Assembly: GCF_009914755.1 (NCBI RefSeq)
Contig: NC_060925.1
Direction: 5' to 3' (one strand)
Origin: the human T2T-CHM13v2.0 reference genome, Homo sapiens
DNA length: 64,000 nucleotides
Part shown: in pieces, positions 7,600-44,900 of the stretch
How the letters are laid out: every line of letters starts with the position of its first letter
Position numbering within the stretch: the stretch's first letter is position 1
The notes under the pieces: model-generated
What the model was told of the DNA's origin: nothing
Seen by the model: the letters and a program-made list of their open reading frames with translations, nothing else
Database searches by the model: none
Position numbers and translations under genes: made by a program

Positions 7600-7800
7600 A
7601 AAACCCTCCTGCGTCATCTCCCACCACTGACACTCCTGCTGCAGCAGCAGAAGAGCCTGCAATTACAGCCTCAGGCACGCGCGTCACCACCAGTTCAGCG
7701 CAGCCAGGCGGGCTGTTGCCATGGGAACCATCCCTTGAATGGATGGATGCTGAGCTGTCCTGCGGCGGTTTCCATGGAGAAGGTCCTGATGTTCTCCAGT
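7600..7800 (+). promoter_or_regulatory. Candidate internal promoter/enhancer A with two RFX X-boxes
   Basis: GTTGCCATGGGAAC at 7715-7728 and GTTTCCATGGAGAA at 7768-7781; CRE half-sites CGTCA near 7612 and 7682; local CpG retention. Confidence 0.55.
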
Positions 7801-7841
7801 AATTTCTGCAGTTCTTTGTTCCCGGCAGCAGCCCCAGCCTC

Positions 7842-7892
7842 ATGCTAGCAGCTGTTGATTGCGGTTATTATTTTTTCCCTTTTTCTCACATG
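7842..7892 (+). CDS. CAMTA1: Candidate alternative first coding exon A: MLAAVDCGYYFFPFSHM, splicing to exon 10
   Basis: ATGs at 7842 and 7890 in one frame; upstream in-frame TAA at 7800-7802; donor ATG|gtaact is phase 0, matching exon 10; promoter-like motifs directly upstream. Confidence 0.55.
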
Positions 7893-40478: not shown

Positions 40479-40770
40479 TTTTTGAGACAGGGTCTTGCTC
40501 TGTTGCCCAGGCTGGAATGCAGTGGTGTGATCATGGCTTACTGCAGCCTCAACCTCCTGGGTTCAAGCAATCCTCTCACCTCAGCCTCCCAAATAGCTAG
40601 GACTACAGACACACACCACCACACCCCGCCAATTTTTTTTAAAAAAAATTGTAGAGAGGAGATCTCACCATGTTGCCCAGGCTGGTCTCGAACTCCTGGG
40701 TTCCAGTGATCCTCCTGCCTCAGCCTCCTAAAAGTACTGGGATTACAGGTGTGAGCCACCGTGCCCGGCT
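40479..40770 (-). mobile_element. Alu (AluJ-like)
   Basis: Reverse Alu; ctgtatctgcttt on both flanks. Confidence 0.9.
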
Positions 40771-42849
40771 GTATCTGCTTTAAAGGACAAAAATTGCACT
40801 TAACCTGGGTACTGCCAATGGACTCATAACTGAGTATTCTTTTTCTCTATTTTACAAAACAACCCAGGTATGCTCAAAGCCCCATAAAAACCCAGTGTAA
40901 CAATATGCTTGAATCATGCGCGTGCCTTATTCTCTCATCTTCTAACTTGGAAGAAAGAACATGAATACCACAAGGAACCACCTGTGGAGATTCAGTTCTA
41001 GGGCGCTGGCAGCACTCGGGGCTTGCCTCAGGAGCACCCAGCTCATCCCACCCTAGCTCTGCCTGACTTTCCAAGAAAGGGACCCAAGGAAGCCTCCTGC
41101 TCCTGTGGTGCAGTGAGTGGCAGGCACTCCAGGAGAAGAACGAGCCCAGCCGAGAAACAATACCAGGACATTCCCCATGCAGAAACGTCACCCCAGGCTC
41201 CTGACCCCAACCCACTCAGCAGGGCTCAGCCAGTGCCTCCTGGGCTGCTGCAGCCATGACCCCACCTGTCCCACCTGCTCGGCAGAGGTGGGGCTGCTGG
41301 AGGAAGGGTGAGGGGTCATGGGTACCCCTGAGGCCCCTCCTTCAGACAGCTGGGATGCCAGGGCTGAAACTTGTGTCTGCCAAAACAAACAAACAAACAA
41401 ACAACAACAACAGGAAAAAGAACTTCCCCACCTGAGAGAGAAAAGACTGAAGATTCCTTCTCTTTAACTGGGCTTCAGGTGCCTGAACTGGATCCAAATC
41501 ACCACGAGTTCCCCGGCACTTTAGAGTACAGAGGCAGGCGCTGTCTCTCCTGTCAGCCTCCACCCCTGCTGGTCTCTTGCTCACAATCCATTCAGAGCAA
41601 TTCAACAACCATCAGCTGAGCACTTACAGCGTGCCCCGCCAGCACTGTGCAAGCTGCTGGGATGTCAGGCTTTGTTCTTGTTCTCAAGGAGATGAGGGCT
41701 GTCCTGCTCTTAGTGAAAAACAACTAACTTCTAGAAACACTTTTTATTAATGTATGATGGACATATGGAAAAGTGCACATATTCTAAGTATGCAACTCAA
41801 TGATTTTTCACAAACTAAAACCAGTGCCCAGGTCGAGATTAAAACAGCACCAGAAACCCAGAAGCCACCCCAACCCCAGCCTCCAGCCACTCCTCCTCGC
41901 CCCCAAGTACCCCGTTTTGGCAAAGCTGGCAACGGTAGCTAACTTTGATTGAATGTACATCAGTGCCAGGCACTGGTACATGCACCTTCCACCTATTGAT
42001 TCCTTTAACTCCCGCACCATAGATATGAAGGCACAGACAGTGGAGCACACAGCTAGCAACGAGCCCACTCTGAACCCAGGGGGGTTGGTTTCCCGAGCCT
42101 ATGTGTCCCTGATGACTACCCTTTCATTGCCGCCCTGGAAAACAAACAGAACTCACTCACTGTGTACTGCAACACCAACACATAACAAAGCTGGAGGTTT
42201 GGTTCTGCTGAGAGCGTCAGGAAAAGCCACTGAGGGTGGCCAGATTTGAGCTGGACCTTGATGAATGCATAGGAGTCTCCCTAGCAGATAAAGGGGAGGA
42301 GTTGCATAGCAAAGGTGGTGGGGGGAGCGTGCAAGGGGTCCTGCGTGGTGACCCGGGGGGCGGGCGAGGGGTAGACAGGTGCAGTGGGAATACTGACCTA
42401 GAGCAGGATTGGAATATGTACTGGGGCTTTGCCAGGGCAGGCTTCGGAACAGGAGAGGAACTTGCTCAGGTTTACAGTGGGTGGCAGCCCCCAAGGGAAG
42501 CCATGGACGATCTACCGGCATGGGCAGGACCCAGCTTGGTCAGGGTGTCCTTCACGCGGCCTCTAACCAGCGATTCCTCATTGGGTGTACAGGCTTAAGG
42601 GCTCTGCAAATGTTGGGGTTGTTTCTGTGTGCGTTTGGGTAGGGTCAGAAAAGAGACTCCGCCCCCAATTTCGAGACACCTTTTTACCCAGGTGGCAGAG
42701 ACATGGCCGATTTTACAGATAATTGACTGTATCTATATATCTATATCTATTAGTATATAACAAAAACAAAATAGGCGGTCTCATCACAGGTCTTGGGGTC
42801 AGGCACTTTCTCTGTGCGAGGCCGTGGGACTGCAAACAGCACAGGGAAA

Positions 42850-44900
42850 AAAGAAAGCGGGATCCGCTCGGGACGCCTGAGCCTCGATTAAGAGGTGCGG
42901 CTCGGGATTTGTGGCCGGGGCGAGAGACCCTCACGCAGAAGTCCCCAAGTGCGCAGGGCTGGAGCTGGAACTTTGGAACGCGGAGGTTAGACCCAAAGGG
43001 TGGGCGGAGCCTGCACTCCAGCTAAGGGGGCCCAGCGCCGCACCCCCTCCCCAAAGCCGGAGCCGCCGCCACCGTCCCCGCCCACCGTCCTCCGCCCCGC
43101 CCTGGCCCTCCCCGGGTCCTCGGGCCCCGGCCCCCTCCCTCCAGCCTGGCCCCCACGCCTCCCCGCTCGTTGCGCAGCGCCGGCTCCTCCCGCCGGCTGC
43201 ATTGCAGACGCCGCCGCCGCAGGGCGCGCCGGGGCCGCGCAGGGAGCCCGAGCCCGGGAACGCGGGCCCTCGGCGCGGAGCTTCGGGCGGCCCCGACGGC
43301 GCGGGGAGCCAGGCAGGGCGGGCGCGGGGCGGCCCCGCGGGAAGGGGAACGGGAGGCCCGCGCGGGGCTCCGGGGGCCGTCGGCCCGGGCAGCGGGCGCA
43401 GCCGTCGGGCTCCGAGCCGTCCCGGCCTCGAGGGAACCGTCGCCGCCCCATTCGCGGGCCGCGCTGAGCCGGGCGGGCGGAGCGGCGGGGACCGCGTCGC
43501 GAGGGACCGGGGGCCCGGCTCTCGCGCGGGGACGCCCGGGCCGCGCTCCGCCCGCAACCTCCGGCCGGGCCCCCGCCGTCCAGCGCGGCTCGAGCGCAGT
43601 TCCGGCGCAGTCCCCGCGCCGAGCGGCTCCGCGCCCCGCACCAGCCTCTGCCCGGCTCCGGGTGACGTCGCATCCTCCGATTGGACCACGCGGCCTGGGG
43701 GGCGGGGTCTGGTCCGGTGAGCTCACCGCCGCGCCCCGCCATTGGTCCGGGCGGCGCACTTGGGCAGTGGCGGGGAGACCGCGGTACCCGGAGCCCCGCG
43801 AGTCGTTCCAGCTGCGGCGAGTGGAGCTGAGCGGGCGCGGGGCCGGGCTGGGCCGGGCCGGGCGGGGCCGGGCGGGGCGCGGGAGCCAGTGAGCGGCGGC
43901 TCGGCGCAAGCCTGACGAGCAGGAGCCGAGCTCAGCAGGTCCGGGTAGGTGCGCGGCGGCGCGGGGCTAGGCGGAGGGCGCGTGCGGTCGAGGGCGGCGG
44001 CCGGCGGGGGCGCGCGCGGGGCGGGGGCGGGGCCGGGGCGTGGGGGGCACGCGTGCTCGCGGGCCGGGGGCGTGGTGCGCGGCCACGCGTGTTTCTGGCG
44101 CGAGTGTGCGGGGCCAGGCCGGGAGGGCGTGCGCGGACCGGGCGTGTTTACGCGCGGCGGGGAGGGGCCACGAGGGTGCGCGCGTTTCTGGCGCGAGTGG
44201 GAAGTGTGGGGATCCGGCGGGCCCGGTGTGAGGGGCGTGTTTCTGGGGCGAGAGTGGGGAGTGAGTGTGAGGAGCAAGGGTGAGGGGCTGCAGGGAGGGG
44301 TGCGTTTGGCCGAGGAGTGGGTGGGAGACACGCGTGTCCATGCCGCGAGGGTGTGTCGACGCCCGAGCCTGCGTGGGGCCCGGGGCCGTGTGTCTGGAGT
44401 GGCCGAGGGCGTGAGGGGCGCGCGTGTTTGTGCGAGGGGCGTGTGCGGCGGGTGTGAGCCACGCGTGTCTGGGTGCGCGCGCGGGCCGGATGAGCTTCTG
44501 GAGTGGTGCGAGGACGCGCGCGTGTGTCTGTGTCGGAGCGAGGGCGGGGACGAGCGTGTCGGGCGCGCGCGGGCGGGGCTGGGGCGGTGTCGGGGCGCGC
44601 GGGGGCCCGGCCCGGCCGGCGGCGAGTGTGTTGGGGCGCTCGGCTTCTCCTCAACACGGGTTTTTGGGACCCAGTGCCGCCTCCTTCCCGCGGCGGGGCC
44701 CGCGGAGCTCCCGGTTTCCCTGGGCAGGCAGGTGCGAGGCGAGGTGCGGGCACAGCCCTGCGCTCCTCAGCGGGTGCGGGATCGGGCGACGGGGGACTGT
44801 CTCTAACTACAGACCAGGGGAGCGGAGGGACGCTCGATTCACCCGCGTGCACAGGGCAGTCCTGAAAGTGGATGGAAGGCTCGGAGGAACTTCTGAGAGC
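42850..44900 (+). promoter_or_regulatory. CpG island 2 in intron 11, candidate internal promoter C
   Basis: About 2 kb CpG island; CRE-like TGACGTCG at 43663-43670; inverted CCAAT boxes (ATTGG) at 43680-43684 and 43741-43745; GC boxes at ~43699-43707, 43733-43740 and 43858-43878. Confidence 0.9.
43886..43944 (+). other. CAMTA1: Candidate non-coding first exon C (5' end approximate)
   Basis: Inr-like CCAGT at 43886-43890 just after the GC-box cluster; donor CGG|gtaggt at 43944/43945; no ATG; followed by a strongly G-skewed stretch typical of first introns. Confidence 0.55.

What the first reader, a model, noticed from the sequence alone, without database searches (positions are those of the whole stretch)
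7600..44900. Three nested internal promoters could produce a ladder of CAMTA1 proteins lacking the DNA-binding domain
Seen in sequence: three separate promoter-like modules, each followed by a + strand splice donor compatible with the downstream CAMTA1 frame. A is at 7842-7892 (phase 0, into exon 10), B at 19211-19253 (phase 1, into exon 12), and C at ~43886-43944 (non-coding). Their motif sets differ: A has RFX and CRE half-sites, B is a CpG island with a TATA-like element, and C has CRE, NF-Y and Sp sites. Established: CAMTA domain order is CG-1 (DNA binding), activation region, TIG, ankyrin repeats, IQ/calmodulin-binding motifs. Inference: A keeps most of TIG plus ANK and IQ, while B and C keep only ANK and IQ. 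Such proteins could act as dominant-negative partners, calmodulin buffers or DNA-independent cofactors. Truncating variants 5' of these exons would spare them. Some short transcripts may already be annotated; the combined regulatory logic is my hypothesis.
Basis: partly seen in the sequence, partly recalled or inferred. Interest (0 to 1): 0.82.

Follow-up and report, generated by a model that had tools for sequence, protein, structure and literature searches.

The report
Annotated internal promoters of CAMTA1
Two of the three proposed internal start sites of the human CAMTA1 gene are already in the public gene catalogue and give a short protein without the DNA-binding part, while the third is no more than chance would give.

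Summary
B (19126-19253, ATG 19211, phase 1) is exactly the first exon of the curated RefSeq mRNA NM_001349613.1 (716 aa). C (donor 43944) is the non-coding first exon 43786-43944 of seven curated NM_ mRNAs (CDS starts at Met 71508 in exon 12). These two sit in the only two strong CpG islands of the window. C is a divergent promoter shared with lncRNA LOC105376689, whose start lies 174 bp away.

A (7842-7892) is in none of the 43 RefSeq CAMTA1 models. It has no CpG island or core-promoter motif and a weak donor. Its ATG-open-frame-donor arrangement is what chance gives: 3 of 8 donor-like sites in intron 9, against 2.78±1.75 simulated. RefSeq places other internal starts nearby (8774/8809, 11006/11008, 44799).

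No curated short mRNA encodes the TIG domain. Most promoters converge on one ANK+IQ protein starting MSILERLEQME. That start is annotated in fish, amphibians, reptiles, birds and mammals.

The functional ideas (dominant negative, calmodulin buffer) remain untested. My searches found no paper testing them. Verdict: already known, with A unsupported. Low interest.

The parts
2392..4238 (+). CAMTA1 exon 9 (aa 269-884 of the MANE protein). Absent from all short isoforms that start in this window. Its 3' end encodes the first part of TIG.
   Evidence: Pfam TIG profile positions 15-57 start only at exon 10.
7715..7728 (.). Palindromic RFX X-box-like site GTTGCCATGGGAAC, 13 of 14 on both strands.
   Evidence: The pattern class is at chance level in the window (7 found, 6.2 expected).
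7842..7892 (+). Not annotated and not beyond chance.
8774..8899 (+). Annotated non-coding alternative first exon (5 NM_ and 1 XM_ from 8774, 1 NM_ from 8809), spliced to exon 10. It has two in-frame stops.
   Evidence: Homologous to the coding leader of a rabbit predicted isoform.
9955..10081 (+). Exon 10, phase 0. Encodes residues 21-62 of the solved TIG domain.
11006..11148 (+). Gnomon-predicted alternative first exon (ATG 11109) spliced to exon 11. Products are 767 and 760 aa.
16636..16770 (+). Exon 11, phase 1. Encodes residues 64-90 of the solved TIG domain.
19081..20160 (.). CpG island (GC 0.71, o/e 0.85) that begins at promoter B.
19092..19097 (+). TATA-like ATAAAT, 34 nt upstream of the annotated start 19126.
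19126..19253 (+). Module B, the first exon of NM_001349613.1. ATG at 19211, 14 codons plus 1 nt, donor GTGAGC, spliced to exon 12. Product 716 aa.
42398..43612 (-). First exon of lncRNA LOC105376689, divergent from promoter C.
42761..45020 (.). CpG island (GC 0.75, o/e 0.99, 309 CpG) spanning both divergent starts.
43613..43785 (.). 173-nt core between the two divergent starts. It holds TGACGTCG (43663), two ATTGG (43680, 43741) and two GGGCGG (43700, 43749).
43786..43944 (+). Module C, the non-coding first exon of 7 NM_ mRNAs. One XM_ uses 43914-43938. Spliced to exon 12, with the CDS starting at Met 71508 outside the window.
44799..53474 (+). 8.7-kb first exon of Gnomon XM_054335438.1 (same exon-12 Met). 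Its 3' part also serves as the alternative last exon of XM_054335435.1.

Best explanation
The window holds CAMTA1 exons 8-11 and most of the 54.7-kb intron 11. Inside it RefSeq already places five clusters of internal transcription starts: 8774/8809, 11006/11008, 19126, 43786/43914 and 44799. B is a TATA-like promoter at the 5' edge of a 1.1-kb CpG island. C is a TATA-less CpG-island promoter with CRE, CCAAT and GC boxes that fires in both directions, CAMTA1 on the + strand and lncRNA LOC105376689 on the - strand, with starts 174 bp apart. Both first exons splice over the rest of intron 11 to exon 12. Translation starts either at B's own AUG (716 aa) or at the first AUG of exon 12 (704, 697, 591 or 584 aa, depending on downstream alternative exons). 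The products lack CG-1, the exon-9 region and TIG. They keep the ankyrin repeats and the IQ motifs, and, according to the literature, a C-terminal nuclear localisation signal. So several promoters converge on essentially one short ANK-IQ protein, not a graded ladder. The same exon-12 start is annotated in every vertebrate class. Inferred, not shown: this protein is nuclear, binds calmodulin but not DNA, and acts by competing for calmodulin or for ankyrin-repeat partners. Module A is a chance ATG-plus-GT arrangement in an intronic stretch that may have enhancer character. It is not a promoter or exon.
For: Annotation: 19 of 43 CAMTA1 mRNA models start in the window, 14 of them curated. B matches NM_001349613.1 and C matches NM_001349615.2 plus six other NM_ records. 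Phases and ORFs. B and C 5'UTRs have no upstream ATG. The 8774-type mRNAs have only a 5-codon uORF and start at 71508. CpG: among the 5 island-like segments found, only the two at B and C reach o/e >=0.85. Motifs. Donor scores are B 3.96 and C 3.67, within the range of the constitutive donors (3.05-7.04), against A 2.38. Domains. Conservation: 42 of the 232 stored proteins start MSILERLEQME, from teleosts, frogs, a caecilian, a turtle, lizard, snake, birds, a monotreme, a marsupial and placentals. 15 more, from fish and frogs, have a 7- to 9-aa acidic leader joined to exon 12 in the same way as B. C-terminal NLS of CAMTA1: PMC9221450, passage in section 4. A.
Against: All expression evidence here is second-hand, from RefSeq models. 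I saw no CAGE, reads, ribosome profiling or protein data. 0 of 232 stored proteins carry B's 14-aa leader within 5 substitutions. B's coding start may therefore be lineage-specific or not used. The database is clustered at 90% identity and only 120 of 626 and 120 of 320 hits were listed, so the blank is weak. RefSeq lists a 'silencer' element (silent region_185, 43533-43952) over promoter C. Most non-human short isoforms are automatic predictions. A weak, tissue-restricted start near A cannot be excluded from sequence alone. RefSeq enhancer elements flank it (6861-7050, 8223-9069).
Confidence: 0.85

Rival explanations
1. One reading: three promoters A, B and C give a three-step ladder, with A producing a protein that keeps most of TIG plus ANK and IQ.
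For: The A ORF is in phase with exon 10. CRE half-sites and an X-box lie upstream. Rabbit has predicted isoforms that start with a leader joined to exon 10 (P0101 at 718 aa, P0085 at 824 aa), so such a rung is conceivable.
Against: 0 of 43 RefSeq models use A. 0 of 232 stored proteins carry its leader. The rabbit leader maps to human 8772-8870, not to A. The arrangement is at chance level. The donor is weak and has C at +5. The start context is poor, AGCCTCATGC. With a start near 7.7 kb there are six upstream ATGs at 7721-7789, and three of their ORFs run past 7842. The product would lack the first part of TIG.
Confidence: 0.05
2. The A region (about 7600-7800) is part of an intronic enhancer, for example RFX/CREB-bound, that serves CAMTA1 or the annotated 8774 start. 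It is not a promoter of its own.
For: A near-perfect palindromic X-box and two CGTCA sites lie within 120 nt. RefSeq functional elements flank it on both sides: active region 6861-7050 and an H3K27ac-H3K4me1 hESC enhancer at 8223-9069. It is not repeat-masked.
Against: No element is annotated over 7600-7900 itself. The motif counts are at chance level for the window. No conservation or binding data were available here.
Confidence: 0.3
3. The short transcripts are real RNAs, but the proteins have no function of their own. They would be by-products of CpG-island and bidirectional-promoter activity inside a very long intron.
For: C is shared with a lncRNA. RefSeq marks a silencer over it. B's leader was not seen in other species. 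No paper on the short C-terminal protein was found.
Against: The exon-12 Met start is annotated from fish to mammals (42 of 232), and fish and frogs share a coding leader exon (15 of 232). C-type 5'UTRs are free of upstream ATGs.
Confidence: 0.25
4. 7829-7892 is a cryptic internal (poison) exon, not a first exon. A pyrimidine-rich tract and AG precede it.
For: TTCTTTGTTCCCGGCAG ends at 7828, just upstream of the ATG, and GTAACT follows at 7893.
Against: It is not annotated. By my reading, the possible lengths (64, 61 or 55 nt) all shift the frame. The donor is weak. There is no data.
Confidence: 0.03

Closest known systems
RefSeq NM_001349613.1 (CAMTA1 transcript variant, 716-aa product)
   Same: First exon 19126-19253, CDS start 19211, splice to exon 12. 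Identical to module B.
   Different: Nothing in structure.
RefSeq NM_001349615.2, NM_001349616.2, NM_001349618.2, NM_001349619.2, NM_001349622.2, NM_001349624.3, NM_001349626.2
   Same: Non-coding first exon ending at donor 43944 and spliced to exon 12. This is module C.
RefSeq 8774/8809-start variants (NM_001349614.1, NM_001349617.1 and others)
   Different: It lies 0.9 kb downstream of A and is non-coding in human, with two in-frame stops. The protein again starts in exon 12 and lacks TIG.
DNA-binding-domain-less isoforms of transcription factors, as surveyed in bioRxiv 10.1101/2024.11.28.625692 (passages seen)
   Same: That survey names CAMTA1 as a gene that expresses a DBD-minus isoform broadly. 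The isoform is higher than the DBD-plus form in arteries, heart and skeletal muscle.
   Different: The isoform named there (ENST00000473578) is described as domainless, so it is probably not the ANK-IQ protein. I could not check its exons, and that paper's supplements were closed.
Genes with nested internal promoters giving N-terminally truncated proteins, for example dystrophin Dp260/Dp140/Dp71 (start of the abstract of PMC7372313 seen in the listing)
   Same: Several promoters inside long introns, each with its own first exon spliced to a common downstream exon.
   Different: In dystrophin each promoter gives a different protein length. Here most promoters give the same protein.
TAZ(WWTR1)-CAMTA1 fusion protein of epithelioid hemangioendothelioma (PMC8015719 and PMC9221450, passages seen)
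   Same: A CAMTA1 C-terminal part without CG-1 is stable, nuclear through a C-terminal NLS, and active in chromatin recruitment.
   Different: The fusion keeps the activation region and TIG (exon 9 onward) and gains TAZ's TEAD-binding part. The short isoforms have neither.

Membership tests
Alternative (internal) promoter with its own first exon | A transcript model or capped 5' end starting at the site | tested here: met
   B and C have curated NM_ models. A has 0 of 43 models, so it is not met for A. Capped-end data themselves were not available.
Alternative (internal) promoter with its own first exon | A splice donor joining the first exon to a downstream constitutive exon, in a compatible frame if coding | tested here: met
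   B is 3.96 bits and phase 1 into exon 12. C is 3.67 bits and non-coding. A is 2.38 bits and phase 0. Compatibility alone is at chance level: 17 of 59 donor-like sites in intron 11 and 3 of 8 in intron 9.
Alternative (internal) promoter with its own first exon | Core-promoter signature (CpG island or TATA/Inr) | tested here: met
   B has ATAAAT at -34 plus a CpG island. C has a CpG island with o/e 0.99. A has o/e 0.30-0.46 and no TATA, CCAAT or GC box, so it is not met for A.
Bidirectional CpG-island promoter (module C) | Two divergent starts less than 1 kb apart inside one CpG island | tested here: met
   The starts are 43612 (-) and 43786 (+), 174 bp apart, inside island 42761-45020.
Bidirectional CpG-island promoter (module C) | TATA-less, with CCAAT and GC boxes between the starts | tested here: met
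   Two ATTGG, two GGGCGG, one TGACG and no TATA-like hexamer lie in 43486-43836. That these motifs typify such promoters is recalled.
CAMTA family protein | CG-1 DNA-binding domain | tested here: not met
   The short isoforms begin at exon 12, or at B plus exon 12. Database short isoforms listed with ANK and IQ carry no PF03859. CG-1 is encoded upstream of the window (its position is recalled).
CAMTA family protein | TIG, ankyrin repeats, IQ motifs | tested here: inconclusive
   ANK (exons 13, 15) and IQ (exons 19, 20) are retained. TIG (end of exon 9 plus exons 10-11) is lost in all curated short forms. Single-exon Pfam scores are below the curated cut-offs, except IQ in exon 20.
Dominant-negative DBD-less transcription-factor isoform | Lacks the DNA-binding domain | tested here: met
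Dominant-negative DBD-less transcription-factor isoform | Keeps the interface by which it pairs with, or competes with, the full-length factor | not testable with these tools
   PMC4741010 (passage) calls CAMTA1 homodimeric and DNA-binding through CG-1. A fly paper on a dimerisation region is known to me only by its title in a reference list. That this region lies at the N-terminus is recalled. If so, the short form could not pair with the long one.
Dominant-negative DBD-less transcription-factor isoform | Shown to inhibit the full-length factor | not tested

The most novel reading that the evidence does not exclude
The ANK-IQ short form is in effect an old nested gene inside CAMTA1, with its own CpG-island promoters in intron 11 and a start codon kept since the fish-tetrapod ancestor. 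Fish and frogs even keep a dedicated coding leader exon. In this reading it has a DNA-independent job, for example setting how much calmodulin reaches full-length CAMTA1/2. That would tune the calmodulin feedback loop described for worm CAMT-1 (PMC8428840). Rearrangements and truncations in the CG-1 part of the gene would then leave this second product intact. Whole-gene or 3' lesions would remove both. The human B leader would be a recent add-on.
Probability: 0.3. Interest if true: 0.5.

Novelty: already known. Interest (0 to 1): 0.15.

Why it matters
For variant interpretation it helps to know that a lesion 5' of intron 11 cannot touch the 14 curated short CAMTA1 mRNAs, while a lesion 3' of it hits both long and short products. 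This already follows from the public annotation. What is still open is whether the short ANK-IQ protein is made and what it does. That is a question for experiments and does not rest on anything new in this sequence. The useful correction here is that the promoters converge on one protein and do not form a graded series, and that no curated human short form keeps the TIG domain.

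Tried and rejected
1. I looked for the fish/frog leader exon (MEN.VED type, phase 1) in human intron 11, with a strict and a loose pattern. 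There were 0 hits.

2. I mapped 11 non-human leader peptides onto the 109 kb with tblastn. Only two mapped convincingly: the rabbit P0101 leader to 8772-8870 (E 0.002), and the whale P0095 leader to 71407-71478, just upstream of exon 12 and outside the window (E 1.6e-6). None mapped to A. The rest of that long output is noise at E>0.005, and part of it was cut.

3. I searched the 232 stored proteins for the A, B and 11006 leaders, allowing up to 5 substitutions. There were 0 hits each. This is a weak test. The database is clustered at 90% identity, only 120 of 626 and 120 of 320 hits were listed, and 1379, 5839 and 317 candidates of unnamed source were left out before scoring.

4. An Rfam scan of the whole window gave 0 families.

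5. Literature: searches were badly built. With min_terms 2 they did not force 'CAMTA1', so they returned unrelated papers. Searches found no study of C-terminal short CAMTA1 isoforms. One search found one paper that merely lists LOC105376689. One search did not find the mouse knockout paper I was looking for.

6. My exon-8 peptide in the scripts was cut in the wrong frame, so exon 8 was never matched there. One search gives the right frame. The 'MFHGIKW' isoforms therefore start two residues before the exon-8-encoded sequence, upstream of the window.

7. The donor matrix uses frequencies recalled from memory, not MaxEntScan, so the scores are rough.

8. Cross-species DNA conservation of A, B and C could not be tested, because no other vertebrate genome is reachable here. 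No CAGE, chromatin or read data were available. Supplements of the bioRxiv isoform survey, which may list further CAMTA1 isoforms, were closed and not asked for.

Full report
WHAT THE WINDOW IS. The window is part of human CAMTA1 on the + strand. From the MANE model NM_015215.4 I derived exon numbers and phases. Exon 8 is 765-905. Exon 9 is 2392-4238 (aa 269-884). Exon 10 is 9955-10081 and starts in phase 0. Exon 11 is 16636-16770 and starts in phase 1. Exon 12 begins at 71494, outside the window, also in phase 1. Most of the window is therefore the first 47 kb of the 54.7-kb intron 11. I fetched the downstream 45 kb from the same reference so that whole transcripts could be read.

THE THREE MODULES AGAINST THE ANNOTATION. 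The RefSeq table lists 43 CAMTA1 mRNA models overlapping the window. 24 start far upstream and 19 start inside the window. The internal starts fall into five clusters:
- 8774 (5 NM_, 1 XM_) and 8809 (1 NM_)
- 11006 and 11008 (2 XM_)
- 19126 (NM_001349613.1)
- 43786 (7 NM_) and 43914 (1 XM_)
- 44799 (1 XM_)

Module B is exactly the first exon of NM_001349613.1: exon 19126-19253, CDS from 19211, 43 coding nt, spliced to exon 12, product 716 aa. Module C is the non-coding first exon 43786-43944 of seven curated mRNAs whose CDS starts at the ATG at 71508 in exon 12. Their products are 704, 697, 591 or 584 aa, depending on downstream alternative exons. Module A (7842-7892) is used by none of the 43 models.

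IS EACH MODULE MORE THAN CHANCE? A CpG scan finds five island-like segments in 64 kb. The only two with o/e of 0.85 or more are 19081-20160, which starts at B, and 42761-45020 (GC 0.75, 309 CpG), which contains C. Around A the o/e is 0.30-0.46, close to the window average of 0.34.

- A has CGTCA at 7612 and 7682 and the X-box-like GTTGCCATGGGAAC at 7715-7728.
- B has ATAAAT at 19092, 34 nt before the annotated start.
- C has TGACGTCG at 43663, ATTGG at 43680 and 43741, and GGGCGG at 43700 and 43749.

The X-box pattern class occurs 7 times in the window against 6.2 expected, and 42 of 100 shuffles reach 7. A has no TATA-like, CCAAT or GC-box hexamer.

I scored donors with a simple matrix whose frequencies are recalled. 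A scores 2.38 bits, with C at +5. B scores 3.96 and C 3.67. The constitutive donors of exons 8-20 and 22 score 3.05-7.04. Only 3 of the 20 annotated donors scored fall below A.

The arrangement 'ATG, open frame, donor in the right phase' is not rare. In intron 9, 3 of the 8 donor-like GTs have it, A included. The 8 come from 248 GT sites in all. 300 first-order Markov simulations give 2.78±1.75, and 150 of them reach 3. In intron 11, 17 of 59 donor-like sites at B's score or above have it in phase 1. Frame compatibility therefore proves nothing for any of the three. B and C stand on the CpG islands and the curated models. A has neither.

A's ATG has a poor context (AGCCTCATGC). If transcription started near 7.7 kb, six upstream ATGs (7721-7789) would precede it, and three of their ORFs run past 7842.

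WHAT THE SHORT mRNAs ENCODE. I spliced six annotated models in a script. B's mRNA has no upstream ATG. C's 173-nt leader has none either, and it has an in-frame TGA.

The 8774-type mRNAs contain exons 10 and 11, and the CAMTA1 frame is open through them for 93 codons. However, there is no in-frame ATG there, and the first exon has two in-frame stops, the last being TAA at 8894-8896. Translation therefore starts at the same exon-12 ATG as in C. Only the two Gnomon models from 11006/11008 (ATG 11109; 767 and 760 aa) add exon 11.

Domain mapping by single exons gives the following:
- Exon 10 matches Pfam TIG profile positions 15-57 of 84 and is residues 21-62 of PDB chain 2cxk_A, named calmodulin binding transcription activator 1.
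- Exon 11 is residues 64-90 of the same chain.
- Ankyrin matches fall in exons 13 and 15.
- IQ matches fall in exons 19 and 20.

These single-exon scores are mostly below Pfam's curated cut-offs, because the domains are cut into pieces.

No curated human short form keeps TIG. A product starting at exon 10 would lack the first part of the TIG fold, which is encoded in exon 9. That such a fragment would fold poorly is my inference. The 'ladder' thus reduces to one protein class made from several promoters, plus a 12-residue-longer B variant.

OTHER SPECIES. No other vertebrate genome is reachable here, so I used the named-source protein database. The first query was the end of exon 9. This gave two fish isoforms that run from inside exon 9 to the C-terminus. 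One of them (P0016) served as the second query for the C-terminal part (626 hits, 120 listed). A rabbit isoform starting at exon 10 (P0101) was the third query (320 hits, 120 listed). In total 232 proteins were stored.

42 of the 232 begin MSILERLEQME, the exon-12 Met. By the names they come from teleosts, frogs, a caecilian, a turtle, a lizard, a snake, birds, echidna, opossum and many placentals, including two primates and rat. 15 more, from fish and frogs, begin with a 7- to 9-residue acidic leader (MENKVED and the like) joined to the first residue of exon 12. This is a coding first exon in phase 1, like B. I found no such exon in human intron 11.

Rabbit has two predicted isoforms with a leader joined to exon 10. 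The leader of one maps to human 8772-8870, the annotated 8774 exon, where the human reading frame is broken. None of the 232 carries the A, B or 11006 leader. This blank is weak, because of the 90% clustering and the listing limits.

Longer CG-1-less predictions also exist. One class of 1212-1399 aa starts MFHGIKW, just before the exon-8 sequence. Another of 1185-1192 aa starts inside exon 9. N-terminally shortened CAMTA1 models are therefore common in automatic annotation.

PROMOTER C IS BIDIRECTIONAL. The lncRNA LOC105376689 starts at 43612 on the - strand, and the CAMTA1 exon starts at 43786 on the + strand. The 173 nt between them hold the CRE-like site, both CCAAT boxes and both GC boxes, all inside one CpG island. 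RefSeq also lists a 'silencer' element at 43533-43952. I cannot judge the assay behind it.

LITERATURE. I found no paper on the function of the C-terminal short isoforms (searches; searches were badly built). A bioRxiv survey (10.1101/2024.11.28.625692, passages only) reports that CAMTA1 expresses a DBD-minus isoform (ENST00000473578) broadly, and above the DBD-plus form in arteries, heart and skeletal muscle. It calls that isoform domainless, so it is probably a different transcript. I could not check its exons.

PMC4741010 (passage) states that CAMTA1 encodes two protein isoforms and acts as a homodimer binding DNA through CG-1. PMC9221450 and PMC8015719 (passages) describe the TAZ-CAMTA1 fusion. 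It lacks CG-1, keeps the activation region, TIG, ANK and IQ, and depends on a C-terminal NLS of CAMTA1. PMC8428840 (passages) shows in worms that calmodulin can repress its own gene through the IQ motifs of CAMT-1.

From these I infer, without any test, that the short human protein is nuclear and calmodulin-binding. Competition for calmodulin seems more plausible than pairing with the long form, if dimerisation needs the N-terminal region. That last point is recalled. I saw only the title of the fly paper, in a reference list.

VERDICT. B and C are real but already curated. A is a chance arrangement. DBD-less products and the sparing of them by 5' lesions follow from the annotation. The graded ladder and the TIG-keeping rung do not hold for the curated human models. 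The proposed functions are untested. Novelty: already known. Interest: low.

Noticed in passing
Proteins P0027, P0031-33, P0036-37, P0039, P0041, P0046, P0052, P0063, P0078, P0093, P0098, P0106; human intron 11 (window 16771 to 71493): Fish and frog CAMTA1 short isoforms share a 7- to 9-residue acidic leader (MENKVED type) joined to exon 12, so a dedicated coding first exon is old. No such exon is found in human intron 11.
   Followed up: partly
window 8772-8899: The annotated human non-coding first exon is homologous to the 42-residue coding leader of a rabbit predicted isoform (P0101). In human an ATG sits at 8772-8774, cut by the annotated start at 8774. The frame into exon 10 carries two stops, the last being TAA at 8894-8896.
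   Followed up: partly
window 45243-53474 and 53212-53470; proteins P0003/P0138, P0014/P0053, P0009/P0093: There are mirror-image products. Two human Gnomon models (XM_054335434.1, XM_054335435.1; CDS of 2937 and 2934 nt) end in alternative last exons inside intron 11, so they keep the sequence through exon 11 (TIG) but lose ANK and IQ. In a turtle, an anchovy and a frog the gene is annotated as two separate proteins split at this same intron, with neighbouring locus tags in the anchovy and close ones in the frog.
   Followed up: no
window 32174-43612, - strand: The lncRNA LOC105376689 carries the description 'translation initiation factor IF-2', which is odd for a non-coding RNA. Its last exon is 7.9 kb long (32174-40073). 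One paper merely lists the locus name.
   Followed up: no
window 43831-43883: A GGGCC/15-nt tandem array (8.6 copies of the 5-mer) lies inside the C first exon. A further 17-nt GC-rich array lies at 43970-44053, just past the donor.
   Followed up: no
window 2241-2580 and 2861-3960: Exon 9 itself contains CpG-island-like segments (o/e about 0.63). Marsupial and camel predicted isoforms of 1185-1192 aa start at an internal Met at about residue 103 of exon 9.
   Followed up: no
L001 7407-7478 (window coordinates 71407-71478, outside the window): Whale and goat predicted isoforms have a 29-residue leader that maps directly upstream of exon 12. It looks like a 5' extension of exon 12, and so possibly yet another start site.
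   Followed up: no
window 7715-7728: There is a near-perfect palindromic RFX X-box in intron 9, between two RefSeq-listed regulatory elements (6861-7050 and 8223-9069). It is not itself annotated.
   Followed up: partly
window 23901-24260: A small CpG-island-like segment (360 nt, o/e 0.73) lies in intron 11 with no annotated start.
   Followed up: no
window 1-64000: No Rfam family reaches its gathering score on either strand. Only 8853 of 64000 bases fall in listed masked repeats of 100 nt or more, and none overlaps A, B or C.
   Followed up: yes
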